A stretch of DNA of 64,000 nt from Raja brachyura (lineage: Eukaryota): NCBI GenBank assembly GCA_963514005.1, contig OY740808.1, positions 29,078,001 through 29,142,000 of the forward strand, in the 5' to 3' direction. The position numbers and the translations under genes were made by a program. Position 1 is the stretch's first letter, and each line of letters begins with the position of its first letter. The notes under the pieces are model-generated. The model made no database searches and was not told the DNA's origin. It was given only the letters and a program-made list of their open reading frames with translations. Of the stretch, positions 10,062-32,275 are shown piece by piece.

Positions 10062-10250
10062 TTAAATATGTATAATTTCAGCTTCAGTCAATAGTGCTAT
10101 TATAACAAATATTACATAATAGGAGACTAAAATAATGCCGTATAATCGTGTGAACTTAAAGCCTTGAAGCGGGATCAATATAAATGACATAACAAGACTG
10201 AAGCCGAGTGATCCAACTAGAACCCAATCTAGGAGGCCATCGCATTTGAT
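10062..10250 (-). CDS. SLC8B1: SLC8B1 last coding exon
   Basis: IKCDGLLDWVLVGSLGFSLVMSFILIPLQGFKFTRLYGIILVSYYVIFVIIALLTEAEIIHI-TAA, 189 nt. Confidence 0.94.
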   Translation of the reverse strand: MKCDGLLDWVLVGSLGFSLVMSFILIPLQGFKFTRLYGIILVSYYVIFVIIALLTEAEIIHI

Positions 10251-13200
10251 CTGAGGAAGAAATATAAATGAGTAAATTTGGCACTAGTATAAATTTACAT
10301 TAAATTACTGTGGAAGATGTTTTAATGCACAACCAAAATTGTGACTTCTACAAAAATGAAACCAAAATTAAGAGATAGGATTCAACCCAAATACCAAAAG
10401 GAACTCTTTGCAGATAAGTTTTTGCAGCGTGCTTATAAAGCACATTTATGTAATAACAATTTTCACAGTGGACTAATCTAAAATGTCCCATCTAAAATAC
10501 ACAAACATGTGGCAGATTGAAATGGCTTATAACAAATCAATCTTTTTTTTACTTCCTGCCAGCAAACTTTAAAACCATACAATTTATGCAGCTCTAGTAT
10601 TTTAGGGATAAGCAACCGACTTCAAATGAGACAGTCACGTTCATATTACAGTGAATCATATCATCTATCCTTAGTTCAGGAAATCCTGCTTTGAATGTCA
10701 ACTCTGATTTACAGCAGTACTTTAAAAATTCAACTGCTCGTTTTAAATTGCTATTTCATCAGAGCCCCTTCATGGAGATTGTTTACTTCTTAGTTAGACA
10801 CAGCTTATCTATCAATGTCCACTTCCTCCATTTTATTCCATTCACCAGTCCCTCATGTTCCATCCTTACTCATCTACAAGCCTTGCAACATCCAAAGTCA
10901 TGAGATCAGCCCTCACATATACACAGCTCACCCGCCTCGGAATGCTTTTGCAAAATCCCCATCTTACCATAACTTACCTTCCTCTGAATATTTATTGCAA
11001 AGTATAATCTTTGAACTCCAGAAATTACATACTCTTGCAAACGACACTACATTTTCCATTGACACTAATTAAATCTTGAAGAATGTTGTATCCAGAGCAT
11101 AGCTTCCCAACTACATCCTTTGGTACACACTTCCATTTCTTAAAAGCGCTCATTTGGACATACTTTCTTGATATGAGGATTTGTATCAAGTGATTTTTCT
11201 TTCCCCAGCTGATTATTTTGATATCTTGGCCTTCCTCCCACACATCTTCAGCTTAGAATTCTATCTCAAACCAATTTCTTTCCCATCATTATCTATTGTG
11301 CTGGAGTGAGCTTGGCTTGATTGTATTAATGTATAGCATTTTCTGACTTGATTGCATAGCATGCAAGACAAAAAACGATCTCAGTTAATCACGAGTCAGT
11401 GATAAACCCTAACCTTTGAAGAAGTCTCGACCTGAAATGTAACCTATTCCTTTTCTCCAGAGATGCTGCCTGACCCACTGAGTTACTCCAGCATTTTGTC
11501 TCTATATCAACGCAAACCTTTTTTTGCTCTTCAACCATCTTCAAAGGTGCTGCAACTCTCGACCCAAAATCAGCATTTATCCTGGGTTAAAAACCATTCA
11601 ATATCCCTAGACCAATTACTCTTATTTTTGACCAGCAGCCTGTTCTTATTTCCCCTCCCATTACATGAAGCCTGCGGCTCCTCCAAGTTGCTGAATAATA
11701 GAGAACAAAAAAGTCCAGAGTTTTAAGTTTACTTTTGAAAAGCATGCAAACATGGTATGAAATATGTATATAGTAAGATGGGTACACACCTCAAGGATGT
11801 TATCATTGTAGGGCATTTGAATAAGAGCGCTTAAGCCTATACCAAACAGCATATCTACAGTGGAATTAAGGAACCATACAACTTTGAATAGCCTTTGGAA
11901 TTTTATAACCAAATGCAGAAACCACACAAAAGGATACTAAATATTATTCCACCGAAGCATGCAGCAATAGCCATCCGCGGGTATCCTTGTCGAGCTACTG
12001 TGATGTCGGAGAACAAATCTGGGGGAGAAAAGCACCAGGTTGATTTCGGCTTCAACCTCCACCCACTAAAGTAATAATTTGATTCAAAGTGTGGCAGTGA
12101 CAAACTCAGCATGTGCACGCTGTTCCCAAACCAGTCACCTTCGCTTTTAAACAAGGAAAACCACCAGTAGCACACACATTTTGTTCCTCTCATTGTCACC
12201 AGCTTTAGGGAAGTAGCCCGACAAAGCATAAATATTCAGTGTTAAAATAACTTCCCCAAATCAAAAACCTCATAATCTTATTTAATATTTAAAATGCCAC
12301 TTAAATTAGTTTCCCCTAATGTAAACAAGCTTATTTAAAACTGCCCCTAATAAGACTCTTAAAGGTCACCCATCTGAAGGGTCCCAACCCAAAACATCAC
12401 CCACTTCCCTCTAGAGATGCTGCCTGTCCAGCTGGGTTTCTCCAGTATTGCGTGTCTACCTTCGATTTAAACCAGCATGTGCAGTTTTTTCCTACACATA
12501 TCTTCAGAGATGGTGACTGACCCAATGGACTATTCCAGCAATTTGTGTTCTACACATTTAGAATTGATAACTTTCTCCAAGCATCATTGCATTGACGTTA
12601 GGCTCATGTTTCATGACATAAAAACATTACATTTCCTCAGCTGCCGGTCAGAGGCAGTTTGCTATCAAGCTCTATTCTGCTGATTCTCAGTGAGAATCCT
12701 TGCCACTGTGTTAATGTCTTTGGGATCATGCAGTATCTTTCTGCATTGCTGGAGCCGTCAAAACATTCCCCAGGAAATTAAAATGGCCTCCGTCTTGCAG
12801 TAAGATTAATCATTGCATGTTAGGAAAGGAAACCTGCATACCTTGGTCTAACAAAGGACATGCATAAGTCAGACAGGTTATTAAACACAATCTGTTAGTT
12901 TCATGGCCACCATGACTGATCCTAATTTTGTGTTCCAGTTTGATTCAATTGACCAGATTTCAATTCTCTAGCTGCCGTGGTGGGATTTGAATATAGGCGT
13001 TGGACTCCACAACACTATTCCATTATTGCAGCTACAATGTTACTACTATTTACGTTTCAAATGTTTGACATAAATATTTACAAATAAAATGGAAACTCAG
13101 CTCAGTTCTGGAAGTGGCCATTCAATTCAGTATAGATCTGGAGTTTGGTGATACAGTGTTGAAACAGACCCTTCGGCCTGCAGTGTCCTCCTTGACCATC

Positions 13201-16200
13201 AATCCTCCATTAGTTCCGTGTTACCCCTGGTTTCGCATCCTACACACTAGGGGTAACTGACAGAAGCTAATTAAACTACAAACCTGCACGTTTTAGGAAT
13301 GAGGGAGGAAACTGGAGAAAACCCACGCTGTCACAGGGAGAATGTACAAACTCTGCACTGACAGTACCCATAGTCAGGATTGAACCCGGGTCTTTGATGC
13401 CGTGAAGCAGCAGCTCTACGCTGCATCACTATTAGAAAATATGCTGGCTATTTACTATTAAATTCATCCAAAACTAAGAGTTTAGCATTAGCCCCTGGTA
13501 AATGTTTATCTACTCTAACTATAGAAGGGGTCTCTACTGCAAAGTACATGCTGTATTAGCACTGGAGTGTTAATCAGCTTCTGACCATTTTACATTGGCT
13601 GTCATGGTCTTCCCCAGCCAGACCATAATAACATACCTCCAATACTGTTTCCCCAGGCGAGTAACGTCAATCCCAGAACAGTATTACTCAGGTTAAAAAT
13701 TATTCCAAAGGAACGCAAAAGATTGACGATCTCAATGGCTACACTGTTGATCAGTATGATGCTGAAGAAGAAACCAATGAAAGCAAACACCTGAAACAAA
13801 GACAAAAATCTGTCATTTCTTGCATGTATTGAATGTCGACCATAGAAAAGTGCAGTTCTACACATTCACCCATTTTTAAGTAAATAATTGTTCCAATCAA
13901 AATTGTTACAGATGTTATGAATTGTAACCATTTTTAAATGGCACAGGTCAAAAATGAGTTGGGCAAAAAAATAAGTCAGATGACCAGTGGCATAGCAAAG
14001 CATATCAAATTACAAATACAAAGACGACTTTTCAGATGGAGTAATGAATTTAACATCCAAGAATGGCGTGTAGAGTTAAAAGTTCAAAAGATTAAAAAGC
14101 GCAGGCTTGGTGTTCGCTTCGCCCAACACCTCCGCTCAGTTCGCAATAACCAACCTGATCTCCCGGTGGCTGATCACTTCAACTCCCCCTCCCATTCCGA
14201 ATCAGACCTCTGTCCTGGGCCTCTGTCATTGCCAGAGTGAGGCCCAATGCAAATTGGAGGAACAGCACCTCATATTTCGCTTGGGTAGTTTACACCCCGG
14301 TGGTATGAACACCGACTTCTCCAATTTCAGGTAGTCCTTGCTTTCTCCCTCCTTCCCCTCCCCATTCCCAGCTCTCCCACATAGCCTACTGTCTCTGCCT
14401 CTTCCTTTCTCTACCCCCCCCCCCCCCCCCGACATCAGTCTGAAGAAGAGTCTCGACTCCAAACTTCGCCTACTCCTTTTCTTCATAGATGCTGCCTCAC
14501 CCCCCCCCCCCCCCCCCGTGTTTCTCCAGCATTTTTTGTCTACAGTCTGAAGAAGAGTCCTTTCTTCAGACTGAAGGGTTCCACCCTGAAATGCCAGCCA
14601 AACTCGGACAGGGTTGGAGGGATATGGTCAAGCGCAAGCAGGTGGGACTAGAAAAGCTGGGACATGTTGGCCAGTGTGGGCATTGAGCCAAAGGGCCCGT
14701 TTCCACACTATCACTATATGACACTCTAGCACTTTGTCTTGTTTTGTAAACCAGCATCTGCAGTTCCTTGTTCCAATACAAACAGAGTCAAGAACAAATG
14801 CATCTGGAGATCTACTTCTGCTTTCGTGTGGCGTGCACAGCCTAAAGTTGTAGGACAACTTGTTCTATTTGATCTTCTGTTTGTTCACGTCGAGTTAATT
14901 GCATTAGTCAAAAACAGGGCGGACCATGTGAAGGTTGCAATCTCCCACCCCTGTTGATCTACAAGTAACCATAAACCAAGATTCTGCCCAAATTCAGGCA
15001 GAGAAAATAAAACTGTGCATCATAGAATAAATTAAAGTAAAATCACTGTTAAACAGGAAGATAAGACACCGCAACAATGAATGATCAAGGGAAAATGTTA
15101 CATCATGTAGTAAAATGTGGCCGCAGTCATTGTGAAATCATGTAGTTCATAATTACAAGGCTAATCACGTTGACACATGCTGATAATTAAGTGATAATTC
15201 TCCATTCAGCCTACATGTTCATTTAAGAACAATTAAAAATATAATTAAAATGGTTGCAATGCATATATTAATCGAGAAATAAAGGAATTTGTAGACATGT
15301 TAAGATTCCATCAAGGTGTTGGTTGGGTTACAAACAGGAAAGGAATTTTTGGAATACAATTAACAGAAAGAAAGAAACTATTGTTCAGATTGAAATCCAA
15401 GTGGGGATTGGCCCAGTAATATAGAACATTACAATGCAAGACAGCATTGGCCCAGTAATGTAGAACGTCGTTCAAAACACGTTTCATGTGAAACTTACAC
15501 AGTGAAACTTTGGTGGTTCCTCATTTTTTGTGAAGAAGAAAATAACCGCTGCTAAAACTAATGTAATCACCAGAACAACAGCCCATACAGGATACTGGCC
15601 ACGGATGAGCAGCAATCCATCTAAAGAAAATAAATTCTAGTTAAATGATCTCACGCAAAGACTATAGACAATATTTCTGTAGATAAACTAATTTAGAAAC
15701 ATTTTCATACAATTAATGTAGCTCATGCAACCTGTACAGCACATTAAAGTCCAATGAAAAATGCACCCCTGTTTTTCTGATCTTTAAGGGCCCGTCCCAC
15801 TTGGGCGTCATTTGCCTGTTACGCAGATGGCGCGCAAAGATTTTGTACATCCCAAAGTCCTGGGGCACCTCGCGTCACCATGCGTGCATGGTAAATGATG
15901 TCGCGTAAATTACGCGCAAATGGCGCCCAAGTGGGACAGGCCCTTTATAAGATACAAAAAGCAGTGATAAGCCTCAAGTTACTCTTATTTCCCCACTTAC
16001 TACACTCCAACCCCCCAAAAAAAAAAATTACACTAGCATTCCAACTTGATAACCCAGTATCCTGAAAATACACACAAAATGCTAGAGTAACTCAGCGGGG
16101 CAGGCAGCATCTCTGCAAAAAAAGAAATAGGTGACATTTTGGGTCGAGACCCTTTTTCACACCCGAAACATCACCCATTCCTTTTCTCCAGAAATGCTGT

Positions 16201-19200
16201 CTGACCCACTGAGTTACTCCAACTTTGTGTCCATCTTCAGTTTAAGCAAGTTTCTGCATTCCACCCATCACACCCTGCATCTTGATTCCCTTGGGTGTTT
16301 AAAAAGTTATCACAAAAAAAAGTACTACATGACTAAATATAATGGAATTGATTTTCCATGGCTGAGCATCCTCAGTACTCGAGATTTACTATCCAAATTT
16401 AACTATGGACTAATCTTCCTCTTTATACGACAGATACCCAATCCCATTTCCGACAGGCAAATTCTCCGTGCCAAATCAAAGGGAAAACGGATCCTTTAAA
16501 AACATGAAGCATGAAACATGAAGCAAGTGCATCTCCAGATACAGAAATCAAATCTACACTTGGTATTCTTGTTGTGATCCCAAACTACTGTTAAGTTGTG
16601 GCATGATTTCCTTATACTGGCATGCAAATCCCCTGGGGAGTTGTAGATAGACAAAATGCTAGAGTAACTCAGTGGGTCAGGCAGCATCTCTGGAGAGAAG
16701 GAATGGGCGACATTTCAGGTCGAGACCCCAGCTGCATTCTATAAAGTTGGGTGTAATGTTGCTGTCATTGACAAAGTCCATTGCTTGAATGAATGGCTTT
16801 TGAGACTTCGAGGGGTGTTGGGTGTTAATTACATTGATAGGTCCGGAGTTCAAAACCAGACCTTCACCAGGACGTTAAACCAAGTGTGCTCTGATTCACT
16901 ATGAAAATGTCAAAGACCCAGTTTAGACTTTTTATGGCACCCTATCAGAGGGCATGTTGACCAGAAAGTGATCCATTTATTCCAGTCATTTCTTAATCAT
17001 TCACTTTTCCATGCTAACATACCACTGCAACCATGTACATTATGAAATGTGCAGGATAAAGCAGGGATAAAGAAATTGTAAATATTTCCCTCGAGATATT
17101 AAATTTTTATAGTGTCCAAAGATAACCTTTTAACCGAGCAGATATTCATGAACTGGTTTCACCAATTTCGTTCTCCATTAAAAAATGCTTCATTATAATA
17201 CACCTCACAATTTACCATTGGACAATTTTAAATTCCTCTGCTTCCTAGCATAGCTTTTGGCCACAAGATTCAGCACGAGACAGATTAAAATCAAAAGATC
17301 AATCTCTAATCAACATTGCAGCAATAAGCAAAATAACGGTGGCGTAACAGAGCTACTGCCTTACAGTGCCAGAGACCCGGGTTCGATCCCAACAATGGTG
17401 CTCATCTTTATGAAGTTGGTACGTTCTGCCCGCGACCCGCATGGGTTTTTTTTTACCCCAGAGATCTTCGGTTTCCTCCCACTAGAGACACAGGTTTGCA
17501 AGTTAATTGGCTCGGTATAAAATGTAAAATTGTCACATGTGTGCGTGGGTAATGTTAATGTGTGAGGATCGCTGGACAGTACAGACTCTGTGGGCCGAAG
17601 GGCCTGTTTCTGCACTGTATCGCTAAAACTAATCCAAAATCAATTGCAGCGGAATTGGTTTTATGAAAATTGTACAGAATTAGATTTAAATTGGCAGACA
17701 TTTAAACTAATGCAGCTTCCAAATCCCTGAATGTAATGTTGGGAGCTTGCAGTGCAAGTCCATTGACCCCGATAATCATGCTTAAAGTATATTAACTGCA
17801 ATTAATTCATTCACAACACCAGTATTTATCTCATTCTCCCATGGAGTACCCAAAAAAACCACAAATAAATAAAAAATCTAAAACTCCTGTTCACTTGCAA
17901 CAATAAAACAGCATGGGAGAGGAGAAAAAAAAAAGTACTTCTGGAATCAATTATCCCAATGAGTAAGCAGGGAAGGGAGGATGCAAAAACAACATCGGCA
18001 ATTGCGCAAGTTGCCTAAATTCAGAAAGCGTTCTGCTTTTGGCTGCCAATTCAGTTTGAAGAAAATCTAAATGTCAAGGAAAGCAACTTAACTAATAGTC
18101 CTTCTGCAAACTGTATTAGTCACATGTCCATATGTTTTAGAAAACTCCTTTTATCTAAACTTGAGATATCAAATTTCAACCAGACCCACCCCAGATTTGT
18201 CTGACCGTTACAATGTTTTTCTCTTATTTTAACACAGTGATGCAAATAAAATTCTTACAGTAGCCAGATTTAAATACAAGGATGCAGACAAGCGAGCCGG
18301 TAACTATCTGTAGACAATTCAGGGGCCGCTTCCAGTTTTGATTATCTTGGTCAAAGTCAACCACAGGAATACAAAGCAGAAGCAAAAACTCGATTGGCAG
18401 CTGGAAGAGAGAAATGAAAGCATCAGAAAGTTGCAACTGAACATTGTAATTAGAACAGACAACCAGTCTAAAATGAGGAAACTAAATCAAGGCACGAGGG
18501 AGGAGGGAGCGGGTGCCGCAAGGAAAATGGGGAAGACTAGAAACCAACAGCAAAACAATTGGAAAAAAATGACTAAAATTAGCTCTGGAAAATAAACAGT
18601 GATTTGGTTACAAATGACGAACTCACAAGCTGAAGTTTCAATTTGTCTTGGTTGCAGAGGGAAGGGAAGAGACGGCCATTATGGGAACCGAAAACTTCAC
18701 CCAAATTATTTAAGCAAAACGTTTGACAAAACTGGAGATTTACATTCTGGACCATTATAACGATTCGCCTTCCTCTGAAAGTGAAACCAAATAGCAAAAT
18801 ACAGCATCTCAGTGCACAGTGCATTAACAATGGCCTCAAACACTGCAATTTAGAATTAAGCTTCCAGTACATTTTAAAGCAAGGGTGCCACAGTGGCACA
18901 ACAGTAGACTTGCTGCCTCACAGCGCCAGAGACCCGGGTTCGATCCTGACTACGAGTGCTGTCTGTATGGAGTTTGTACGTTCTTCCTGTGACCGCGTGG
19001 GTTTTCTCCAGGATCTCCAGTTTCCTCCCACACTCCAAGGACGTACAAAGGTTTGTAGATTAATTGGCTTTGGTAAAAAAAATAGCTCTAGTATGTAGGA
19101 TAGTGTTAACTGTGCGGGGATCACTGGTCAATGTGGACACAGTGAGACAAAGGGCCAGTTTCCACGATGTATCACTAAACTAAACTCAAATCACCTTCAG

Positions 19201-22200
19201 GCATTTGAAAATCTTCCAGGGCAAATGTTTCCTCCTCCATTTTTGAAAGTCGATGGGATTAAGAGAGTCCAGCAAAATGGATTTGGTAGATCTCGATTCT
19301 TCTGTCTCAATTAAAGATTGATACTCGCTTGCTGCAGAGAGAAATCTTTGGTCAGAAATATAGAGTCTGCACTTTGGGATTTGCAAGCCAAAACCAAGGC
19401 AAAAGCAAAAGCCTATTGTTATGTCTTACATTGAACTGGCATGTACATTATATAACTATGTGCCAAAAATAGACAATGTCACAAACCAATTTATACGGGT
19501 TTGAAAGTACGGCACAGAAAGACCTCAACTTCAGTAAATTCGTCACATTACACATTCAAAAACAAAAAATGTTGTAAGCATATGGGGCAAACACAGGCAT
19601 GTGGGACTAGGATAGATGGGGCATCTTGGTTAGCATGGGGAAGTTACGCTGATGGGCCCCCGTTTCCAGGCTGGATGACTAACCCGAACAGTTTAGCTCA
19701 AGAGAAAGTGCTTACTGTCTTCAAGTGTAGTTCTCCTGATACATGTTGGAATCTCATCGTCATTGCCATTAACTGAAAAACAGTAATTATATTGTTTACT
19801 ACATCGAATAGCATACACATCTCAAAAGGACACAAAGTGCTGGAGTATCTCAGCAGCTTTGGCCACATCTCAGGAGAATATGGACAAGTGATGTTTCAGG
19901 CCAAGACTCTTCAAGTTGCCCTGTATAGTGCTCGTTCTAGAGCATTGCTCTACGCCGCTTCAGTTTTAATTGTCAAGTAGAACGTTAAACAGTTATTGTT
20001 TAACGCGTCTTCCAATGTATTGAAACATGCTTGTGGCACTAGTCCTGGAGAAGATAAGGCATGAAACGTAGAAGTCACTTTTAAAAAAAACACTATTCTG
20101 AAAGATGAAAAGTTAATAATCATTTAACAAAGCAAGCCACCATTAATCCACACAAACTTTGCCTTCTCAAAATTAGCAACGTACAAATATGCAGCAAGCG
20201 AGTAAGATGTATATTTCACAAAACACTTCAATGAGATAAAACCCAATTTAGTGTAGGATGGAACTGCAGATGCTGGTTTATACCGAATATAAACAAAACT
20301 CTGGAGTAACTCAGCGGGTCAGGCAGCATCTCTGGAGAAAAGGAATAGGTGGTGTTTCGGGTCCAGACTCTTCTTCAGACAGACTCGGGGGAGAGGGAAT
20401 CTAAAGGCATGACGAGGTACGAACAAATCAGAACCGGCAATGATGACCAAGGAGCCCACAATGGCCCATTGTTGGCTGTGGAGGTGATATCAAAGGGATA
20501 TGAACAGTGAAGCTAGCAGGATGACCAGAGGGTGGGGGAGGGTTACTTGAAATTAGAGAAATCAATATTCATACCACTGGGTTGTAAACAGCCCAAGCAC
20601 CATTAATGTGGCCAGCACTTTCTTACTACCGAGGGCAGTAGTTCAATTCTGCGATAATTGCGATTTGGAAAAAAGTCAGTTAAACAGGGGTTGGCATGTT
20701 ACTTACTTTCTGAATGATTGTTGTAGAGAGAAGCACGTGGCTGGTTTTTGCCCTTCTGGTAAATTACACTGCTTACGATTACCACGAGAACATAAACAGC
20801 ATAAAGGGCCAAGTAACCTACGGAGATAAAATATAAAGTTCATTTCACAATGAGAGTTCAAAGTCATATTGAATTGCCACAAAATTCAATTGGATAGATT
20901 GACAGAAGCTAAAGTCAAGTGATGTGACTTCCCCAAGTCAGCTCAAAATTCTCACCAAGTGCTTGTGCCAAATTAATACTCCCAAAGTAGAGGACCAGGA
21001 ATGCCCAGAAAACTGCCGCCATGTAGAAGGTAACGTCTCGGAGGAATGGTCTGGATGCCACTGTAAATGGTCTTGCAAGGCCAACACCTCCAGCAACAAC
21101 TGTGGTCACAAATATACCAGCACCTGCAAAGTAGCACAAAGTTTTACATCTTAAAGTATTCAGAGCAACTCATCCCAGACTCGAGAAGGCAACTGAACCA
21201 TCCTGCCAACTAGAGAGCCAAACTACTATCTACCTCGATGAAGACAGTCAGATGATCTTTGATCAGACTTTAGTGGCTTTATCTTGCACTAGATGTTATT
21301 CACATTATTCCCTTCATCACGTTTCCGAACACGGTTTAGCTCGATTGTAATCATGTATCGTCTTTTCGCTTTACACACAAAAGTTTTTCCACTGAACCTC
21401 GGTACACGTCACAATAAACCAACACAAACTAAAAGCATCTTATCACAATAAAGGGAAAGAAAAATCTCTTGCATATCATTATATAGGATACCAGCAAGGC
21501 AACATTGTTATAATGCTCTTCAAGACAATAATCACCTCTATATAGATGCAATCCAATGAATCCCACTCCCTCATACCCACCCCTACCAAGTCCATTTTCA
21601 AATATCAACACAGCTCCCACTGGATGCTATAACTGAATCTACCTTCATTATTACACTCAGCAAAGCACGACGTGGCAAATTTTCTTTTAAAAGGCATTGA
21701 TGCGTTGTATAGTGGAAATGTAGCCAATTAGTTTAATTCAGTTTAGAGATACAGCGTCGAAACGGGCCCTTCAGCCCACCGAGTCCGCACCGACCAGTGA
21801 TCCCCACTCTCCTACGCACGCTAGGGACAATTACACATACACCAAGCCAATTAACCGACAAACCTGTATGTCTTGTGTGTGGGAGGAAACCGAAGAACTT
21901 TGAGAAAACCCACATGGTCTCAGGGAGAACGTACAAACTCTGTACGGACAGCACCCGTAGTCGGCATTGATCCAGGGTCTCCGGCGCTGGAATATTTCCA
22001 AATGTCTGAAAATTACCCCAGAGAATCGAGGAGGGTGGTGGGAGTCGGCGACAGTGGATGCAAAACCTGTGTGGGCAACATGGTGCACAGCGGGAGAGTT
22101 GCTGCCTTAGGTTCGATCCCGGCTAAGGGTGCTGTCTGTACGGAGTTTGTATCTTCTCCCTGTGACCACGTCGGGTTTCTCTTAGATCTCTGGTTTCCTC

Positions 22201-25200
22201 CAACATTCCAAAGATGTACAGGTTTGCAAGTTAATTGTCTTTCTCCAAATGATAATTGTTCCGTGTGTGTAGGATAGTGTTGATGTGCAGGGACCGGCAT
22301 GGATTCAGTGGTCTGAAGGACCAGTTTCCACGCTGTATTTCTAAACTAACTAAGCAAAAGGCCAGTGAGAGGAGCCAGGGTCTTGCCTTTGCGCATTCAT
22401 GGTTGGCTGCAGGAGGCAGACCCCGAGGCATGGGCTGCATGGTGGCCAGGCGAGGAGAGGGATGATGTTTTGCTGGACGATCCAGATGCAAGCGACGGCT
22501 GCATTGGGGCTTTATGGCCAACTGCAGCTTGGACATTGAAAATGCCACCAAACCCCGACAACTCTTGTATATGGCGAGAGTGGGCTATTTCTGTACACTT
22601 TGTACTCAATCGGGGATTGTGCTGATCTTGACACAATTTACTGAATTGGATGCTAAAGAATGTCACTGTACCTCAGTACATGCAATAATAAAGAACCATC
22701 AAGCCTTTCTTGTACGCATTACAATGTATAGCCCATCCACATCATGTACATCTTCAGCCAAGACCCAGCAGGATCATCTTCCTTGATATAGCCATTAATT
22801 CCTCAAGGCAGCACGGTGGTGCAGCGGCAAAGTCGCTGCCTTACAGCGTTTTCTGCACCAGAGATGCCGGTTCGATCCCGACTACGGGTGCTGTCTGTAC
22901 AGAGTTTGTACATTCTCCCCGTGAGTTCTCCTCACAGCTCTTCAGTCCTCCCACACTTCAAATATGTACAGGTTTGTAGGTTAATTGGCTTTGTATAAAT
23001 GTAAATTGTCCCTCGTGTGTATAGAAGTGTTAATATGCAGAGATCGCTGGTTGGCGTTGACTTGGTGGGCCGAAGGGCCCCGTTTCCGCGATGTATTTCT
23101 AAACTAAAGATAGATACAGTAACTCCAGATCAGACCTCTAAAAATCCTATCCTTGGTCATGCCTGAAGAATGGTTTCGCATTTCCTGTTCCAGAATATTT
23201 TTTCATGCTTTTAGTCCTTTTCAAAACTTAATCTGCAGTTTAATCAGCCCAGTTGTCACATGTTTAAAATCTGGCAATTTGTTCTTCTGTTTTACTGTTC
23301 ATAGAGTGATATCACATACACACATGGTCCATTTTATCTTCCATAGCCGTTCTGAATATTATGGCTGCAATTTCCAAGCTCCTTCCAGCACCGGAACTGG
23401 ATTCACCTGGTTCATTTCCCCCGAATGAACGATAATACCGCTGTCCTTCATGTTGTGTGAATCAGTAACATCTTGACCAAGCAAGTTCTTAGTTTAATTT
23501 GGAGACACAGCATGGAAACAGCCCCACCCTGACCAAGTTCCCACTGATCATCAATCACCCACTCCCATTAGTTTCATGTTATCCCACTTTCTCATCCACT
23601 ACCTAAACATCAAGATCAATGTTTAGCGGCCAATTAATCTACCAACCCACAAGTCTTTGGGACGTGGGAGGAAATCGGAGCACCTGGAGCAAACCCACGT
23701 GCAAACTCCACACAAGCAGCACAATAAAGGTCAAGATCAAGCCCGGGTTTCAGGTGCTGTGAGACAGCAGTTCTACCCACTGCACAGCCCTCTTCTCCCA
23801 AATACACCTCGTTTAAAATAAATGACATGTTAAATAGCCAAGTGAAAGTGCAAAGAAACAACTTACCGAACAAAGCTCCAATCGCCAGGCTTGCTGTTCG
23901 AGTATCAGAAAAGGCTGCTATTGCACTGAATAGATCAGGAGCTCCGTTACCAAGGGCAAGGAAAGTGACACCATGAATATACTCAGTCAAGGACACGTGA
24001 TGAATAAATAAATGGTGTACAAGTCAGAAATATCTTTGCAAATAAACCAAACCTCAATTATCTCGAGCTAATTAAAACAAGTCTTGGGTGCACAAGCTTA
24101 GAGCTGAAAATTGGGAACAATTTTGAACATCCCAATGTGAACAACAATTCACATTTAATATGAAAGGTGTATTTGAAACATTTAGAAATCCTCTATTTAA
24201 AAAAGAGAACAGGTTTTTGTCTTCCTTGCCAAACTTAGAGTGCATGACATAGCTCAATACAATAACTCCAACCACAGAACGAGATGCAATTAAATACTTC
24301 CAGACAACTTAACTACACTTCTCAGTAACTTTGACCTGGTTTTCACAAGGTTGACAATTGCTTGTAAATCTCTTGCTCGTGGACCATTCACATGGGAGTA
24401 CAGAACACGAGATAGAGGTCAATAGTTACAGTCAAACATCTACAATTCAAACAAGTGGGACTTAATGGCTGGCCAACTATTACAAGTTAATTTGATCAAA
24501 AAATATCAGGAGCAAGCAGTGGAATTTGGAAGATACACAATATCAAATTTTAAAAAACAGCTCTTCCTAACATGGAATTTAAAGAGTCCCAATATATGGG
24601 TCAAGTACGCATTAGAGCTGCCTAGTCCCAATATCAAGGCAGTCATTATAGTAACAGAAAAACAGCTGTACTATGGATGTCAACTACTGAAATTAGGATA
24701 AAATGGAGGCAAAATAGTTTGAGACCAAAGTGGTGGGATGCTGTGGGGGGGAATACAAACGAGGACCCGGTGTGGGGGAACTACGATGGGGGGGTGGTGA
24801 AGGAACAAAGGACCCTGTGTGAGGTACGTTGTTGGCAACCTTTATGTGGCAACTCTTTGCATACCTTGGGTATACACAACAAAGAAAATAACTGACTTGT
24901 CACATGACAATTAAGTATTCATTCACTCATTCTTTTGCATTACTGATTATATTCTGCTATGGTGTGATGTGCTTGGATAGCAGACAACAGTTTTTCTCCA
25001 CTATATAAAACATTAAGCTTTGAATACATCCAGGAATTCAACGGCTGATAAAAAGGATACTGCCACATTATGTGACAACTTCAAACTTGTCGCTATGGCA
25101 GCCAGATTTGGGCAGAAGCTAAAGAGAAACAAAATGAATGAGACTTGCCTTTAAAATGTGTTTGAAGATCAGAACAGTTAAGAAACCACAAATTATAATT

Positions 25201-28200
25201 AGCTCCACTGCCAATGAGGGACAGAATCATATTTTAAAAGAGGTGGGTAAATATCAAGACATTTAGTGCATGAAGGAATGGCTGTAACATGTGGATAGAT
25301 TTTCCAGAAACAGCACACGCAATGTGCACTACATAAGTTATAAGTTAATTAAACCTAGAACTAGCAACTCTAGATTTAACCCAGAGAATATTCCCGGAGC
25401 AGGGAAAGATTTCATGTACAAAACTGAGGCATTTGCATTCTCCAATTTCAAGTAATACCCCCCCCACCCCTCTCTCCTGTGCCCCTCCCCACACCCATTC
25501 TCCCGACCCCTCTTCCCTCCAACCAATATCACTACCCGACTTAACATTTCACGTCTCTTCTCTCCTTTCATAACTAGCCTTAATCACTTCACCCTTTGTT
25601 CCAACATCTACCTATCCAACCCACCTTTGTTCACCCATTGTCTGACACTTCGTCCTGCCTTTCCTCACTCCCGGCTTTCTCCCCCAGCTACCAGTCTGAA
25701 GAATGGCACAAAATGCTGGAGTAACTCAATGGGACAATAGGAATAGGTGACGTTTTGAGTCTTCAGTCTGAAACAAATCACCTATCCATAGGTAGACAAA
25801 AGTGCTGGAGAAACATCTAAGATGTTGCTGCAGCCGCTGAGTTTCTCCAGCACTTTTGTCCACCTTTGATTTTCCAGCATCTGCAGTTCCTTCTTAAACA
25901 CATCACCTACCCATGTTGGCCAGAAACAGTGCTTGACCCACTGAGTTAATCCAGCACTTTGTGTCCCTATCTAGTCTGATCTCTTTATCATAAAGTTGCA
26001 GAACAGAACAAATTGTAATCTCACCAAAAATCTACAGTGTCTGACCAACAATTTCCTGCCACGTGGAGTTTCAGAACACGTGACAAATACCACCATCCAA
26101 TATACAAAACTTTGTTCTGCATAGTTTAGCCTGGAAAGGTTTTACATTCGATTGAAGCGGAAACATCTCTACTTGATTTACAAGCAATTCCAGAAACCCA
26201 ACCTCAGTCAATTGCCTTTAACTATATGGCATTTTAATCTTACTTTGAAGATTAAAAGATAACAGTTTTTCACAAACTGAAGAATGGAAAGCACGAAAAT
26301 ATTTTAAAATTCACAATTTTAAGATTAACTTCAATAACTACAAAAAGGGAACAGGGTAGACAAAGTTCCCGTAAAATGTAACGTCATGCAGAAAGAGTGG
26401 GTAAGCAAAAGATTGTTTAGGCAAGGAATTATATTACGCACCAAAAGTCAGCACTTACAATTTTTCAGCTGTTATTCCAAGGAACATGAATAGATAGAAC
26501 AACCAAACTGCCTGTGTAAAAACAAGTATGAAGAGACTGTTGGGCCTTATTTTACAAATCCTACCTTTTATTGTCAAGCATGTTAGAAATTCTAATCCCA
26601 ACCCTAAACAGTTTGAATGCAGCTATTTGCATTCTAGTCCAATGTACAACCACACATTTTGTCAACGTACAAATTCTACAAAAATAATCAAATTAACACT
26701 TGTCCCAAAAAACAGAATATCAAGGGTGACCCAATGCAAAAAAAAAAATGTTTTATGCAGTTTTAACTCAAGGTTTTAATGAATCATCTTGTAAACTGGG
26801 GCCAAGGAAAGAAGAGTGTTCACATCGCGGCCCAGTTCCCACCACTACACACAAGCGCGAGACACCTTTGTACGCAGATGCCGAGAAGCGTTCAGCTCTG
26901 GCTGAACAATTTCTAATCTTGTGATGGGGACTCGATAAGAAGATTGTGTAAACTGGCATTGTTAAGTAAATTGAGCACTTAATTTCTCAAGTTAAATTGC
27001 GCAAATCCACATAATGAACAGGAAAAATCAGTTGACGACCCTTAAATATTAATCAGTTACATCAACTGACAAATCCATTTGTGGATTTTTTGAGAGCATT
27101 GCAAAATTTGGGTTTTAAATTAACATTGATAATCACAGACTAATCCCATGACAATGACTAATACTCTCTGCTACTCATAGTGTGCATGCACGGTCATTGG
27201 AAAGATTATCACACGAATCTGCAAACATTTTAGGTCAAATTAGTGGAGTTAGGGGTGAATTGTTACATTTTAAAAATCCAAGAAATCTCTCTTAAAAGCA
27301 ATTTGAGTTGGAGAGAGGGGAAGCCATGCCCGTGATCCCAAAGAAACCTGTAGGATGAACTGCTAAATCTTTTTTTTGTATATATTTTTATTAGAGGCCA
27401 TACGTATTACAAATAATATAATAATTTTTTCAGATATGCATATTACACATTTCCAAAATTATATTATTACAAAGCAATATATATCAGCCTCAATTTTTTT
27501 TAATAGTGAAGAGAAAAAAGAGTAAAGAAAGAATAGATGTTTAATTTAAAAAGTGTGATTTTGATTATATGTGAGAAGAGAGAAAAAAATAATAAAATCA
27601 AAACAAAATCAAACAAAATTTAAAAATCCATATTACTAGCAAACAATTATTATACTTAAAGATAGAAAAACAGTATACATCTTAACAATGAATGGAACAA
27701 TTTCTAATACATATATAGAGACAAGTATATAAATCTCAGATTAAACCTTTTCATTTGATCTTACCACCGGGTACTTGTTGATGAACTGCTAAATCTTAAA
27801 AGGAAACTAAATAAATAATTGGCCGAGAATAGCAGGAGCTCTTGGTTTTTTTTTTTTTTAAAACAGTAAGCGGCCTAACAGAAAGCATAGTGGGATGGGT
27901 TAAAAAGATACAACATTTTAGAGCCTTAAATGATTAATGCTTGAGCCCAGAAAATGGACGGTGTTTAGTACAGTTGAATGCATGGCTAAAGACATTGTAT
28001 ACGAGGGCAGGCTTCCTGCAGCATTGGAGGCAGAGGGTTGACAACACAGGCAGATAGGATTAGCTCGGAATGCTAACATGGCTAGCACAGACATGGGTTG
28101 AAGGGTCTATTACTGCAATGTTCTAAAGATACAAGTTCTGATCAGAGGGCTGAAAGACAGCCAAGAAACCAATGAAATGTGTTGATAGAAATTGCCAAGT

Positions 28201-31200
28201 TTTATTCATAGTGGGTCAGCTTCCCTCCCCCCAAAACCAACTTCTTGCATCAAACTATAGACATAAAAGCCAACTAGACTACAACCACATTATTATTTAA
28301 AACATTAAAAATAGTAACCATCACCTTGTGCCCCTCAGACACTCCACTTTATTGGAGTTGTTCCAGGTCCAAACTGGTGCAGGGCCAGCATGTGGACTTG
28401 AATAGATGGAGCATCTTAGTTAGCATGGACATGTCGGGCCGAAGGGTTCATTGTGTGCTACATAACCGTATGACTATGTGCAGGTACTGGTGGAATTCAT
28501 TGACCAACAGCGGATCCTATGGAATCCAAAATCAAACGCAGGCTGGAAAACGCCCCCAAAGACCAGTTACCACATTTGCAACCTCCAGATTTTTGTGGAA
28601 ATTCAGACGGGTACATTGGAGAAAGTTGTTTGGAACATTTTTCTGCTAGATGCAGCTATTTCGGTTGTTAATACAATGCAATACTGACTACCATAGTTTA
28701 GCAGTCCATGATACTGATGACAATTGACCACAACCCTTGCATTTACTCAGTTCTACCATTATTGGCAATACTTACATACAGCACAATGGCCAGAGGCAGC
28801 AGATTGTGGCAAAAGCCACAGACAGCCCCTTGGAGGTAATCAATAAAGCCACTCCCAATTTTGCAGTCTTCGGTAGTTTTTACAAATGAACACCACTGGG
28901 ACCCATTCATATGCACAACATTGCGACACTAGGAAAGAACCAAAATATAGTTAGCAGATTCAACATTTACCTCCTGCACCCATGCAGAACTCATGGACTT
29001 CATTAACATCACCACCAATTTCCATCCTGCACTCAAATTCACTTGGACCATCTCAGACACGTCCCTCCCCTTTCTTGATCATCGTTACTTTTTGCTTTTT
29101 GTGTCTACCTTCATGATGAAACCCCATTCTTTCTAGTGTTTGGCACTTTCAAAATGTCAAATTACTTGACTGTAGACCACATTGATAAAGGCGACAGAAG
29201 GAATTGCAGATGCTGGAATCTTAAGCAAAAGACAAAATACCATGGTAATGCAGATGTTTAAGAAAGAACTGCAGATGCTGGAAAAATCGAAGGTAGACAA
29301 AAATGCTGGAGAAACTCAGTGGGTGAGGCAGCATCTATGGAGCGAAGGAATAGGTGACATTTCAGGTCGAGACCCTTCTTCAGACTGATAATGGTAGTTT
29401 AGATAGTAATGCAGATGATCAGGCAGGATCTGTGGAGGGAATATTCAGACAACCCTTCATCATTTTGAAGGATCCCAAACATCTGTCTATTCCCTCACAG
29501 ATGCTGCCCAACCCACCGGGTTAATCTAGCACTTTGTGTTTGATTTAAATGTAGCCATCGTTCTTGAAAACATTACTTGTCAGTGGCAGGTAGAAGCTAG
29601 GGATTTTTGTATACATTCAAATTACAGCGAGTCACATTTGTGTAATGGTTGTACAGTTGTGTACAGTTTGAGAAGTTAGACATTTTTACTCAAACTGCAA
29701 TTTGAGACAATGCAACCAAACTACATTTATAATGCTAGATCAGATCCTATCGTTAGGCTCAATTTTAAAAACCATTTCAGCGAGTCAAGATTTAGGTTTT
29801 GATTAGGAGACACAAGTTCCTTAATTAGCTCCCCCTCTCCCAGGGCAATTTATTCTCTCAAATTAACATTTGACAGATCTTCACATGGAAGTCAAGCCTG
29901 CCCAAAATCCTAGTGAGAATTTCAAATTGAAATACTTTCAAAAAAAGCACCTGGGCGCAATGCCAAATGGCAGAACATTGATTGATACAGGTGCAGTACA
30001 AGTAACTTGCACTTTCAGATAAAAATCTGAAGATCAAACCATATTCTAAAGAGAAGGGTCAGTGTGAGAGATCCTCCAATAATCTCCATCTCCCAGTTGC
30101 CAAACACTAACTGCCCTTCCCATACTGACCCCGTCCTGGGCCTCCTCCACTGTCAGTGAAGCCACACATAAATTGGAGGAACTGTACCTCATATTTTGCC
30201 TGGGCAGCTTGCAACCCAGAAACATCACCCATTCCTTTTTGCCAAAGATGCTGCCTGACCCGCTGAGTTACTCCAGCATTTTGTGTCCATCTTTGATGTA
30301 AACTAGCATCTGCAGTTCCTTTCTACGTGATAACAGTGGTCAGTTTGTGGGATTTTGCTGTGTGAAGGTTGGCTGGCATATGACCAGATCACACATCATT
30401 GCCAAGTCATTTTCAGACAATGCCCAGATGTATGAAAGAAGCTACACAAATGAATTGTCTCTATTGTTGGATATCAAATGGCACATCCATACCAGGACGC
30501 CCATGAAAAGGGTACCAAGCAATTTTTTTTTTTTTTTTTTTAAATAAAAAAGCCATATCAGAAATTTGGGTTTACTCAAAGATATTCAAGTATTGAATGT
30601 AACAATCACCTTATTTCCAATTTTGGAATGGCATTCAATTTGGTTTATGGCATTTCCCAATCATTAACATGGCCTGCTGCAGATGTAGTGTACAAATCAG
30701 GCTACTTGAAACGAGAAAACCAACAGATCCATTCTTTCATTAGATTTACCATGAAGCAGTCTGGCAAGGATAAAAACCAAGACAACAAGCAACTGGAAGA
30801 AAGCACGCTTTAAATATCTTCCCCATGACATAGGGCCATCATCAAGTGCCATCTCAGAGCATTTCCATTCCCCAGTGTATTTCTTTGTAAGATTCTCTCA
30901 TGCCAAACAACTCCATCCCGATTCTTCTGTTACATAGACCTCTGGTCTAAATAATTTACAGCAGCCAATTTATCTACTGAACAGCAAGTGTTTTAGACAG
31001 AGAAGGAAATGGGAGCACTCAGTATATCCACAGGGAGGACATGCAAGCCCCACACAGACAGCAGCAGAGGGGAGAATGAAATGCAGGTCGCTGGCACAGT
31101 GAGTCAGCTGCACTACCTGCTGGACAACTGTGCCACTCATACAAGTCAACACCTTGTGGTTTCAGAGTTCAGCCAGCCAAGAGGAACACCATAAAGACTG

Positions 31201-32275
31201 CGACGGGAAAGTCAAATATTAAAATGCCGCTAGCTGGACGGGGAGAGAGTTGCTGCTCGACTGAAAAACATGGTTGCAAATAGTGTTTGCATACCGATTT
31301 AAACAATCATATCAATAGGACAAACCATCATCTATTATTCAATTCATTTTAGAGTGACATTTGGAATATTTATGGTGCTCAAGATCTAAATAACAATCTT
31401 ACAATAACATAAGGTGGGCATACTGTTCGCTAGTCAGTGCTGGTATTAGATAACATGGCCCAATACCCAACGACTGTTAGCTGTTGCTCGAGTTATTAAC
31501 CGCGAGGACTAACAAAACTATCTTTTAACCGTGGCATGAAAACAAAATAATTCACCCCAACCCCCATACTAGATCCACAACAGCAACATGCCACAAACCG
31601 AAGGTCAGCTCCCGTAAATATCAGGTAGGGCACTCCACTAACAATTTGCAAATAGCGCTCTAATTAACGATTCGCCCCCACAAAGATGGTTTAGAATGTC
31701 TCCAGTAATAACACATCCGCCCGCCACCCTGAAGACGGGCAGCCTTACGACCTTTGAGCGATCGCACTCATACAGGAAGAACATTGCCGACCACAGTTAC
31801 CACTGTGATACTGGCGATAAAGGCAGGTCCTTGAATGAGCGGAACGTTTAAAAAGTGCCACACAATTAATTGCAAGACATCAACGAAAGTCATTCCCAGC
31901 TTCGGTCAAGCCGGAGATCAGAACGGAGATATAAATAGCTGGACATGGCAAAGCGTTCCTTCAGCTGTTGACATTAATCAATTGCAGAAACATTGAAATA
32001 GATCCGGGGGGGGGGGGGGGGGCAGTTTTTGCTATAGTTCTGTAAAATCATTTGGAGTCAACGCATGCAGAACATACCTCCATTGGCCGACTGGTGCCTT
32101 CAAACAGACTTTGCGAACTTGCATTAAAGGTGTTTTCAGAAGAATACGGCTCAATTATTCCAGCCACGTTGACAAGTGGATGCGATTCCGCCGCTCCCGT
32201 GGGCTCTAGTGAATTGCACTCGGCAGTCCCAAGCCAGAGCAGGCAGCAGATCACAGCAACGTCTCTTGCCTTCAT
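10062..32275 (-). CDS. SLC8B1: Na(Li)/Ca exchanger NCLX, complete multi-exon CDS (15 coding exons, 597 aa)
   Basis: Exons join in frame to 1794 nt; alpha-1 repeat GVTFLALGNGAPDLFS and alpha-2 repeat GLTLLAWGNSIGDLFSD; lies between TPCN1 and PLBD2 as in other vertebrates. Confidence 0.96.
11790..11854 (-). CDS. SLC8B1: SLC8B1 coding exon 14
   Basis: (N)MLFGIGLSALIQMPYNDNILE; preceded by U12 branch site TTCCTTAAT and tag. Confidence 0.92.
11855..11937 (-). other. U12-type GT-AG intron, 83 nt
   Basis: 5'SS GTATCCTTTT; branch TTCCTTAAT at 11873-11865, about 11 nt from the AG; no polypyrimidine tract. Confidence 0.9.
11938..12018 (-). CDS. SLC8B1: SLC8B1 coding exon 13
   Basis: (D)LFSDITVARQGYPRMAIAACFGGIIF, followed by U12-type donor GTATCCTTTT. 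Confidence 0.95.
13143..13430 (-). mobile_element. HE1/V-SINE-like element
   Basis: Reverse-orientation copy of the same family. Confidence 0.8.
13637..13790 (-). CDS. SLC8B1: SLC8B1 coding exon 12 (alpha-2 repeat start)
   Basis: VFAFIGFFFSIILINSVAIEIVNLLRSFGIIFNLSNTVLGLTLLAWGNSIG, 154 nt. Confidence 0.95.
14095..14545 (+). mobile_element. Penelope-like element 3' fragment (GIY-YIG endonuclease end plus pLTR)
   Basis: RRLGVRFAQHLRSVRNNQPDLPVADHFNSPSH and KLEEQHLIFRLGSLHPGGMNTDFSNF, followed by a hammerhead-like motif. Confidence 0.85.
15499..15620 (-). CDS. SLC8B1: SLC8B1 coding exon 11
   Basis: GLLLIRGQYPVWAVVLVITLVLAAVIFFFTKNEEPPKFHC, 122 nt. Confidence 0.92.
15787..15944. mobile_element. 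PIF/Harbinger-type MITE
   Basis: About 29-bp TIR AGGGCCYGTCCCACTTGGGCG; TTA TSD on both sides. Confidence 0.85.
17336..17632 (+). mobile_element. HE1/V-SINE-like element
   Basis: Same family as 18886-19186. Confidence 0.8.
18259..18400 (-). CDS. SLC8B1: SLC8B1 coding exon 10
   Basis: LPIEFLLLLCIPVVDFDQDNQNWKRPLNCLQIVTGSLVCILVFKSGY, 142 nt. Confidence 0.95.
18886..19186 (+). mobile_element. tRNA-derived HE1/V-SINE-like element
   Basis: A-box (gtggcacaacagtag) and B-box (gggttcgatcc), central V-like domain, CR1-like tail with ctaaa repeats. Confidence 0.85.
19195..19331 (-). CDS. SLC8B1: SLC8B1 coding exon 9
   Basis: SEYQSLIETEESRSTKSILLDSLNPIDFQKWRRKHLPWKIFKCLK, 137 nt. Confidence 0.92.
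19716..19772 (-). CDS. SLC8B1: SLC8B1 coding exon 8 (regulatory loop)
   Basis: tttttcag|(I)NGNDDEIPTCIRRTTLED|gtaag, 57 nt, phase 1/1; poorly conserved sequence but correct position and size. Confidence 0.75.
20260..20600 (-). mobile_element. Penelope-like element 3' end / pLTR
   Basis: Same family as 14095-14545 in reverse orientation. Confidence 0.75.
20707..20817 (-). CDS. SLC8B1: SLC8B1 coding exon 7
   Basis: YLALYAVYVLVVIVSSVIYQKGKNQPRASLYNNHSE, tag|...|gtaagt, 111 nt. Confidence 0.92.
20956..21123 (-). CDS. SLC8B1: SLC8B1 coding exon 6
   Basis: AGIFVTTVVAGGVGLARPFTVASRPFLRDVTFYMAAVFWAFLVLYFGSINLAQAL, 168 nt, phase 1/1. Confidence 0.95.
21731..23790. mobile_element. Cluster of four HE1/V-SINE-like copies (-,+,+,-)
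   Basis: Copies at about 21731-21990 (-), 22074-22352 (+), 22808-23107 (+) and 23495-23790 (-). Confidence 0.8.
23867..23972 (-). CDS. SLC8B1: SLC8B1 coding exon 5 (alpha-1 repeat)
   Basis: GVTFLALGNGAPDLFSAIAAFSDTRTASLAIGALF(G); preceded by branch site TCCTTGAC and a non-canonical ...CAT acceptor; donor gtaagt. Confidence 0.92.
23973..25060 (-). other. U12-type (minor spliceosome) intron with probable GT-AT termini
   Basis: 5'SS GTATCCTTTT; branch TCCTTGAC at 23993-23986; ends ...tatattcat|GGTGTC. Confidence 0.85.
25061..25118 (-). CDS. SLC8B1: SLC8B1 coding exon 4
   Basis: FCPNLAAIATSLKLSHNVA, followed by U12-type donor GTATCCTTTT. Confidence 0.93.
26459..26511 (-). CDS. SLC8B1: SLC8B1 coding exon 3
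   Basis: AVWLFYLFMFLGITAEK(F), cag|...|gtaag, 53 nt. Confidence 0.93.
27372..27779 (-). mobile_element. 5'-truncated L1-type retroposed insertion (AT-rich 3' UTR)
   Basis: 18-bp TSD GATGAACTGCTAAATCTT (27354-27371 and 27780-27797), AATAAA plus A-tail on the minus strand, TCTT/AA endonuclease-type site. Confidence 0.8.
28776..28928 (-). CDS. SLC8B1: SLC8B1 coding exon 2
   Basis: CRNVVHMNGSQWCSFVKTTEDCKIGSGFIDYLQGAVCGFCHNLLPLAIVLY, AG/GT flanks, 153 nt. Confidence 0.93.
28965..29080 (+). mobile_element. Penelope-like reverse transcriptase fragment
   Basis: Translates to SCTHAELMDFINITTNFHPALKFTWTISDTSLPFLD, a PLE RT-like segment. Confidence 0.75.
32078..32275 (-). CDS. SLC8B1: SLC8B1 coding exon 1 (signal-peptide-like N-terminus)
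   Basis: ATG at 32275, MKARDVAVICCLLWLGTAECNS...RPME, donor GAG|gtatgt; acceptor ttctttgtgcag 14 nt upstream of the ATG. Confidence 0.85.

What the first reader, a model, noticed from the sequence alone, without database searches (positions are those of the whole stretch)
23973..25060. Minor-spliceosome intron with non-canonical GT-AT ends at the alpha-1 ion-binding repeat
Seen: the exon ends HNVA|GTATCCTTTT (U12 donor). The 3' end reads TCCTTGACtgagtatattcat|GGTGTCACTTTC, a U12 branch site with its A about 14 nt upstream of a CAT acceptor that restores the conserved HNVA-GVTFLA. The only nearby AG (23983-23982) is 4-5 nt from the branch A, too close for normal U12 use, and would insert YIH in frame. 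Known: U12 3' sites are chosen largely by distance from the branch site, and GT-AT termini are very rare. Automated annotation is likely to mis-model this junction; a minor +3 aa isoform is possible.
Basis: seen in the sequence. Interest (0 to 1): 0.75.

Follow-up and report, generated by a model that had tools for sequence, protein, structure and literature searches.

The report
Known GT-AT minor intron in NCLX
The gene for the mitochondrial calcium exchanger NCLX (SLC8B1) in this skate-like fish has an intron with minor-spliceosome signals that is cut out at GT...AT instead of the usual GT...AG; the same oddity is already catalogued for the human and mouse gene, so the fish copy mainly shows that it is likely very old.

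Summary
Observation confirmed. Minus-strand intron 25060-23973 (1088 nt) has a perfect U12 donor, a branch site 14 nt from its end, and GT...AT ends. It is intron 4 of a 15-exon, 597-aa SLC8B1/NCLX model, 92% identical and gap-free to skate RefSeq. Spliced contigs from two runs (this organism and a relative) join exactly 25061 to 23972; no join to the upstream AG (+YIH) was listed. A second sample reads the same bases. 0 of 207 homologues carry the +3 aa form.

It is not new. Sheth 2006 lists SLC24A6 (=SLC8B1) as GT-AT in human and mouse. Parada 2014 lists a 163-nt GTAT intron that is the 5' of two human minor introns, the same order as here.

What this adds: the AT end likely predates the split of cartilaginous and bony vertebrates, and teleosts likely use AG. 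In unnamed non-vertebrate contigs the same position is AT-AC, AT-AT, GT-AG or U2-type. Direction of change is untested. The scan noted a GT-AT minor intron before, in LIPT1, not this gene.

The parts
23973..25060 (-). U12-type intron, 1088 nt, phase 0, GT...AT; coding intron 4 of SLC8B1/NCLX
   Evidence: sequence; spliced contigs X12 and X19 skip exactly these 1088 nt; gene model
25052..25060 (-). U12 5' splice site GTATCCTTT
   Evidence: matches the RTATCCTTT consensus quoted in PMC1635337
23986..23993 (-). U12 branch-site motif TCCTTGAC, predicted branch A at 23987
   Evidence: consensus TTCCTTRAY; branch use itself not measured
23973..23975 (-). used acceptor CAT, 14 nt after the branch A
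   Evidence: same bases in a second sample, X13
23982..23983 (-). AG 5 nt after the branch A; would add YIH; no use seen
   Evidence: no joint listed; 0 of 207 homologues with +3 aa
25061..25118 (-). upstream exon, 58 nt, ends in HNVA
23867..23972 (-). downstream exon, 106 nt, starts GVTFLALGNGAPD = rat NCLX 141-175, holding the Ca2+ ligands N149 and D153
   Evidence: PDB match 9ps1/9z4i; Pfam PF01699; ligands from PMC12571890 passages
10062..32275 (-). SLC8B1/NCLX coding region, 15 exons, 597 aa
   Evidence: open frame, 92.1% identity and 0 gaps to Rhinoraja longicauda NCLX (P0002)
11855..11937 (-). second U12-type intron, 83 nt, canonical GT-AG, in the second exchanger repeat (GGIIFN)
   Evidence: not covered by the read laying

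Best explanation
Intron 4 of this fish's SLC8B1/NCLX gene is spliced out between GT at 25060 and AT at 23973, likely by the minor (U12) spliceosome, and is likely the orthologue of the GT-AT minor intron already catalogued in human and mouse SLC8B1. Shown: the sequence signals, the exact junction in spliced contigs, and the restored open frame. Inferred from known U12 biology: the U11/U12 di-snRNP binds GTATCCTTT and TCCTTGAC together; the 3' end is then set mostly by a short distance window after the branch A, so the AG 5 nt away is skipped; and a G-started minor intron tolerates a final T. The choice of CAT at 14 nt over TAT at 8 or 10 nt probably also needs the C at -3 or the exon context (my inference). 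The product is ordinary full-length NCLX with an intact first ion-binding repeat.
For: Junction: X12 and X19 contigs skip 1088 nt, with loose ends matching the neighbouring exons. Base check: X13 has 0 differences over 23810-24052. X14, another organism, has none listed in 23973-23997, with 35 of its contig's 41 substitutions shown. Model: 597 aa, 0 gaps against two named batoid proteins; the other 13 introns are GT-AG. Homologues: 165 of 207 direct, 31 other, 11 without motif, 0 with +3 aa. Print: SLC24A6 GT-AT conserved in human and mouse (PMC1557818 Table 3). Human 163-nt GTAT intron, 327 reads in 14 tissues, 1-nt direct repeat as here (PMC4176328 supplement row). It is the 5' of two human minor introns (PMC6717393 supplement). 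It is classed minor and marked responsive in 4 of 9 minor-spliceosome perturbations, including U12 morpholino (PMC11347168 Table S6). Optimal branch-to-3' distance 11-13 nt (PMC3584512). GT-AT competence in U12 splicing as reported in PMC1557818.
Against: U12 dependence and branch use were not measured in this organism. The runs are contigs with no library record, and X19 is tagged 'probably DNA', so a retrocopy cannot be formally excluded (it would still record the same splice). X12 comes from the same sample as the best DNA holder. Orthology to the human intron rests on gene identity, intron order, type and donor context; no human genomic sequence was aligned here. 14 nt is just outside the quoted 11-13 nt optimum, and an AT at 10 nt is equally near it. 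The human intron was marked not responsive in 5 of the 9 perturbations.
Confidence: 0.95

Rival explanations
1. The intron is a normal GT-AG minor intron ending at the AG at 23982, giving an NCLX with YIH inserted, as the main or a real minor isoform.
For: The AG is canonical and in frame. U12 3' site choice is described as error-prone (PMC3584512). Contigs drop rare variants, so a minor form would be invisible.
Against: The only joint listed between these exons is the 1088-nt one, in two runs. The AG is 5 nt from the branch A. 0 of 207 homologues show N-V/I/L-A plus three residues.
Confidence: 0.03
2. The final T is an assembly or sequencing error and the true end is CAG or CAC.
For: GT-AT makes up only 0.433% (319) of conserved animal minor introns (PMC10639083 Table S1 row).
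Against: A second sample matches without difference, and another organism shows no listed change there. A skate-type genomic ORF from a public run also reads SLTEYIH|GVTF (P0122). Human and mouse are GT-AT.
Confidence: 0.01
3. The junction is real but is made by the major (U2) spliceosome or a mixed pathway.
For: A U2-type GT-AT intron is known (DGCR2). Not tested in this organism.
Against: Perfect U12 donor with C at +5/+6, U12 branch motif, and no pyrimidine tract before the acceptor. The human intron is classed minor and responds to U12 morpholino.
Confidence: 0.02

Closest known systems
Human/mouse SLC8B1 (SLC24A6, NCLX) GT-AT U12-type intron: Sheth 2006 Table 3 (PMC1557818); Parada 2014 chr12:113758491-113758654 hg19 (PMC4176328); Olthof 2019 and 2024 chr12:113320687-113320849 hg38
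   Same: Same gene, GT-AT ends, first of two minor introns, 1-nt direct repeat at the junction. A mouse table row gives GCA|GTATCCTTT and a CCTTGAC branch, as here; the row names no coordinates, so assigning it to this intron is my inference.
   Different: Length is 1088 nt here against 163 nt in human and 120 nt in mouse. Cartilaginous fish were not among the five species of Sheth 2006. The fish copy has an in-frame AG 5 nt after the branch.
Non-canonical U12-type introns, GT-AN (G-type) class; also DEADC1 GT-AT
   Same: U12 donor and branch with a relaxed last base; 4 human and 3 mouse GT-AT cases in 2006; 319 of the conserved animal set in 2023.
   Different: Nothing mechanistic.
U12 subtype switching AT-AC to GT-AG (Burge 1998 as cited in PMC2831892; AT-AG proposed as intermediate in PMC1557818)
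   Same: The same intron position shows AT-AC, GT-AG (U12), U2-type and intron-less states in other eukaryotes.
   Different: The mixed states seen at this position are AT-AT (1 locus) and GT-AT (vertebrates); AT-AG was seen in 0 of 29 loci with both ends.

Membership tests
U12-type (minor) intron | 5' splice site RTATCCTTT | tested here: met
   GTATCCTTT at 25060-25052
U12-type (minor) intron | Branch site TCCTTRAY close to the 3' end | tested here: met
   TCCTTGAC, A 14 nt from the end; quoted optimum 11-13 nt
U12-type (minor) intron | No distinct polypyrimidine tract | tested here: met
   GAGTATATTCAT before the exon, unlike the T-rich ends of the gene's U2 introns (by eye)
U12-type (minor) intron | Removed from the transcript at the predicted ends | tested here: met
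   joint skipping 1088 nt in X12 and X19
U12-type (minor) intron | Depends on U11/U12/U4atac/U6atac | not testable with these tools
   only the human intron has such data
SLC8B1/NCLX | Full-length similarity to named NCLX, Na_Ca_ex repeats, Ca2+ ligands N149/D153 | tested here: met
   92% to P0002; PF01699 on P0002 (2 stretches) and on the exon; exon = rat 141-175
Orthologue of the human SLC8B1 GT-AT intron | Same rank among the gene's minor introns and same ends | tested here: met
   5' of two minor introns in both; 163-nt human one is GTAT
Orthologue of the human SLC8B1 GT-AT intron | Same codon position and phase by direct alignment to human genomic DNA | not testable with these tools
   no human or mouse genomic sequence on hand; donor context GCA| in the mouse row agrees

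The most novel reading that the evidence does not exclude
This one intron position records a subtype switch by an unproposed route: ancestral AT-AC to AT-AT to GT-AT to GT-AG, one base at a time. The GT-AT intermediate has stayed frozen across cartilaginous fish, frogs, birds and mammals for over 400 million years (date recalled), and was resolved to AG only in the teleost line. For: 16 AT-AC and 1 AT-AT of 29 non-vertebrate loci with both ends, with AT-AC also in the two most distant homologues; bird and frog read-throughs end in His in the same register as here; 9 of 9 teleost-type genomic read-throughs end in Gln or Glu. Against: 4 non-vertebrate loci are already U12 GT-AG, so GT-AG to GT-AT is an equally short path; the tree was a quick one and does not resolve the order; AT-AT rests on one unnamed contig; vertebrate ends outside this window, human and mouse are read from amino acids only. 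I found no paper stating this route in searches.
Probability: 0.3. Interest if true: 0.5.

Novelty: already known. Interest (0 to 1): 0.24.

Why it matters
As found, it matters modestly. It is a verified non-canonical junction eight codons before a Ca2+ ligand of NCLX, and gene predictors get it wrong in some birds and frogs. It extends a human-mouse oddity to cartilaginous fish, which suggests the non-AG end has been kept for a very long time. If the multi-state pattern at this position holds up, the intron would be a ready natural series for testing how minor introns switch from AT-AC to GT-AG and whether a GT-AT end is neutral or kept by selection.

Tried and rejected
No whole genome is held for this window. 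The run search listed no holder on record as RNA; this is no evidence either way, and only 4 of the 21 listed runs were laid. No Rfam match in the window. Paper searches slc8b1+minor intron and NCLX+U12 gave 0 papers, because the case is printed under SLC24A6 or in supplements. Lin 2010 text and its one supplement held no SLC24A6/SLC8B1 or GT-AT mention. The zebrafish Zrsr2 supplement could not be read, so the teleost AG end has no DNA check. One of Parada's supplement files was not searched. The tree was the quick version, L052 was left out as too short, 6 rows were under half filled, long branches met and 12 of 33 inner branches were open; it cannot order the changes. My first exon borders were wrong and gave stops; one search corrected them. 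Rejected: base error, main use of the upstream AG, and a TA..TG register.

Full report
Observation. On the minus strand an exon ends in codons for HNVA at 25061 and is followed by GTATCCTTTT. 1088 nt on, TCCTTGAC (23993-23986) is followed by tgagtatattcat and then codons for GVTFLALGNGAPD from 23972. The predicted branch A (23987) is 5 nt from the end of the only nearby AG and 14 nt from the final T. Two more AT dinucleotides end 8 and 10 nt after it, and the next AG is 45 nt away and out of frame. Neither motif is enriched window-wide: donor 4 hits against 1.86 expected, branch 10 against 11.7. What is not chance is their placement: two donor hits and two branch hits mark the two ends of two introns of one gene.

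The gene. An exon used as query found NCLX proteins, the best named one from the skate Rhinoraja longicauda. A 15-exon model from 32275 to 10062 gives an open frame of 597 aa, 92.1% identical to that protein with no gaps. 13 of its 14 introns are GT-AG and intron 4 is GT-AT. The downstream exon matches rat NCLX residues 141-175 in PDB 9ps1 and 9z4i and PF01699. N149 and D153 in that stretch coordinate Ca2+ (PMC12571890, passages), so the junction lies eight codons before the first ligand. Intron 13 (11937-11855, 83 nt) is a second U12-type intron with normal GT-AG ends.

Is it spliced at the AT? I laid 4 of 21 listed runs, all contigs. X12 (same organism and sample as the best DNA holder) has a 3014-nt contig that matches both exons with no difference and skips 1088 nt; its loose ends match the neighbouring exons (compared by eye). 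X19 (another organism) shows the same joint. The one-base ambiguity allows GT..AT or TA..TG, and only the first has splice signals. No joint to the upstream AG was listed, but contigs hide rare forms. Library types are not on record and X19 is tagged probably DNA, so a retrocopy is not excluded; it would record the same splice. X13 (same organism, other sample) matches 23810-24052 without difference. X14 (a third organism) has no listed change in 23973-23997, with 35 of that contig's 41 substitutions shown. A base error is therefore very unlikely.

Homologous proteins. Of 207 proteins from three searches, 165 join N/S-V/I/L-A directly to GVT, 31 differ, 11 lack the motif, and none has the three-residue insertion. 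17 of 18 named cartilaginous-fish entries are direct and 1 lacks the motif. Among the 31, five bird and four frog named models read through the intron end as SLT-x-x-x-H then GVTF, the same register as this window's SLTEYIH. That implies a branch site at the same distance and a CAT or CAC end, and shows that mis-annotation does occur. Nine unnamed genomic read-throughs whose exon is closest to teleosts end in Q (6) or E (3), never H. That excludes AT or AC there and fits AG, though AA is also possible. These ends are read from amino acids, not DNA.

What is in print. Sheth 2006 (PMC1557818; section 23, Tables 2-3 and passages seen) lists SLC24A6 as GT-AT in both human and mouse, and reports GT-AT as competent in U12 splicing. 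Parada 2014 (PMC4176328; passages and supplement rows) lists a 163-nt GTAT U12-like SLC24A6 intron with 327 reads in 14 tissues. Olthof 2019 (PMC6717393; supplement rows only) gives two minor introns per species, of which the 163-nt human and 120-nt mouse ones are the 5' ones. Olthof 2024 (PMC11347168; supplement rows only) classes the 163-nt intron as minor and responsive in 4 of 9 perturbations, U12 morpholino among them, and not responsive to CENATAC loss, U4atac or U6atac morpholino or in one patient set. GT-AT is 0.433% of conserved animal minor introns (PMC10639083; passages and Table S1 rows). The 11-13 nt optimum is from PMC3584512 (passages) and the consensus motifs from PMC1635337 (passages). 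PMC7367187 (passages) and PMC2831892 (passages and supplement search) did not mention this intron. PMC8280824 (passages) reports that CENATAC mainly serves A-started minor introns. That SLC24A6 is the older name of SLC8B1 is recalled; it agrees with the shared transcript id ENST00000552014. I could not align human genomic DNA, so orthology rests on gene, order, type and donor context.

Mechanism. Shown: signals, junction, open frame. Inferred: U11/U12 binds donor and branch together, the 3' end is chosen in a short window after the branch A, the AG at 5 nt is too close, and a G-started minor intron accepts a final T. Distance alone is not enough, since an AT at 10 nt is as near the optimum as the used one at 14 nt; the C at -3 or the exon context probably decides.

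Deeper history. 26 have no intron at this codon, 1 lacks the motif, 24 are interrupted with no donor placed, and 29 show both ends. Of those 29, 16 are U12 AT-AC (11 distinct), 1 is U12 AT-AT (L001), 4 are U12 GT-AG, 8 are U2-like GT-AG (4 distinct) and 0 are GT-AT. So the position is old and has switched subtype. A quick tree put all vertebrates together (SH-aLRT 99) and the two most divergent AT-AC loci on long outer branches, but left the order among the others open. GT-AT could be a held intermediate on the way from AT-AC, or one G-to-T step from GT-AG; my data do not decide. The papers I read propose AT-AG as the intermediate. Searches showed no paper on this locus's history, but subscription journals and the full intron databases were not searchable.

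Verdict. Real, correctly read by the first stage, and already known from the human and mouse orthologue. The additions are depth in time and a possible natural series of splice-site states. Interest 0.24.

Noticed in passing
window 11855-11937, minus: Second U12-type intron (GT-AG, 83 nt) in the second exchanger repeat; human and mouse also list a second minor intron (2109 and 684 nt).
   Followed up: partly
L001:822-1564: Unnamed non-vertebrate homologue with a 743-nt U12-type intron at the same codon with AT...AT ends; one contig, no RNA check.
   Followed up: partly
L042 (41 nt before 4004), L072 (58 nt before 418), L074: Very short AT-AC introns with U12-like signals at the same codon in strongly diverged homologues.
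   Followed up: partly
P0035, P0101, P0116, P0137, P0138, P0133, P0136, P0140, P0143: Public bird and frog NCLX models that include translated intron-end sequence at this junction, apparently mis-annotated.
   Followed up: partly
P0033, P0086, P0092, P0123-P0128: Teleost-type genomic read-throughs end in Q or E before GVTF, hinting that teleosts use a canonical AG here.
   Followed up: partly
window 24829-24930: A short high-copy repeat inside the intron; hundreds of unrelated contigs pile on it.
   Followed up: no
window 36201-37466, minus: Long open stretches that look like a LINE reverse transcriptase fragment (label from recalled motifs).
   Followed up: no
window 3097-3929, minus: Broken reading frames that look like a Tc1/mariner transposase (label from recalled motifs).
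   Followed up: no
window 42471-42616: Run of 146 N next to a long CT-rich low-complexity stretch.
   Followed up: no
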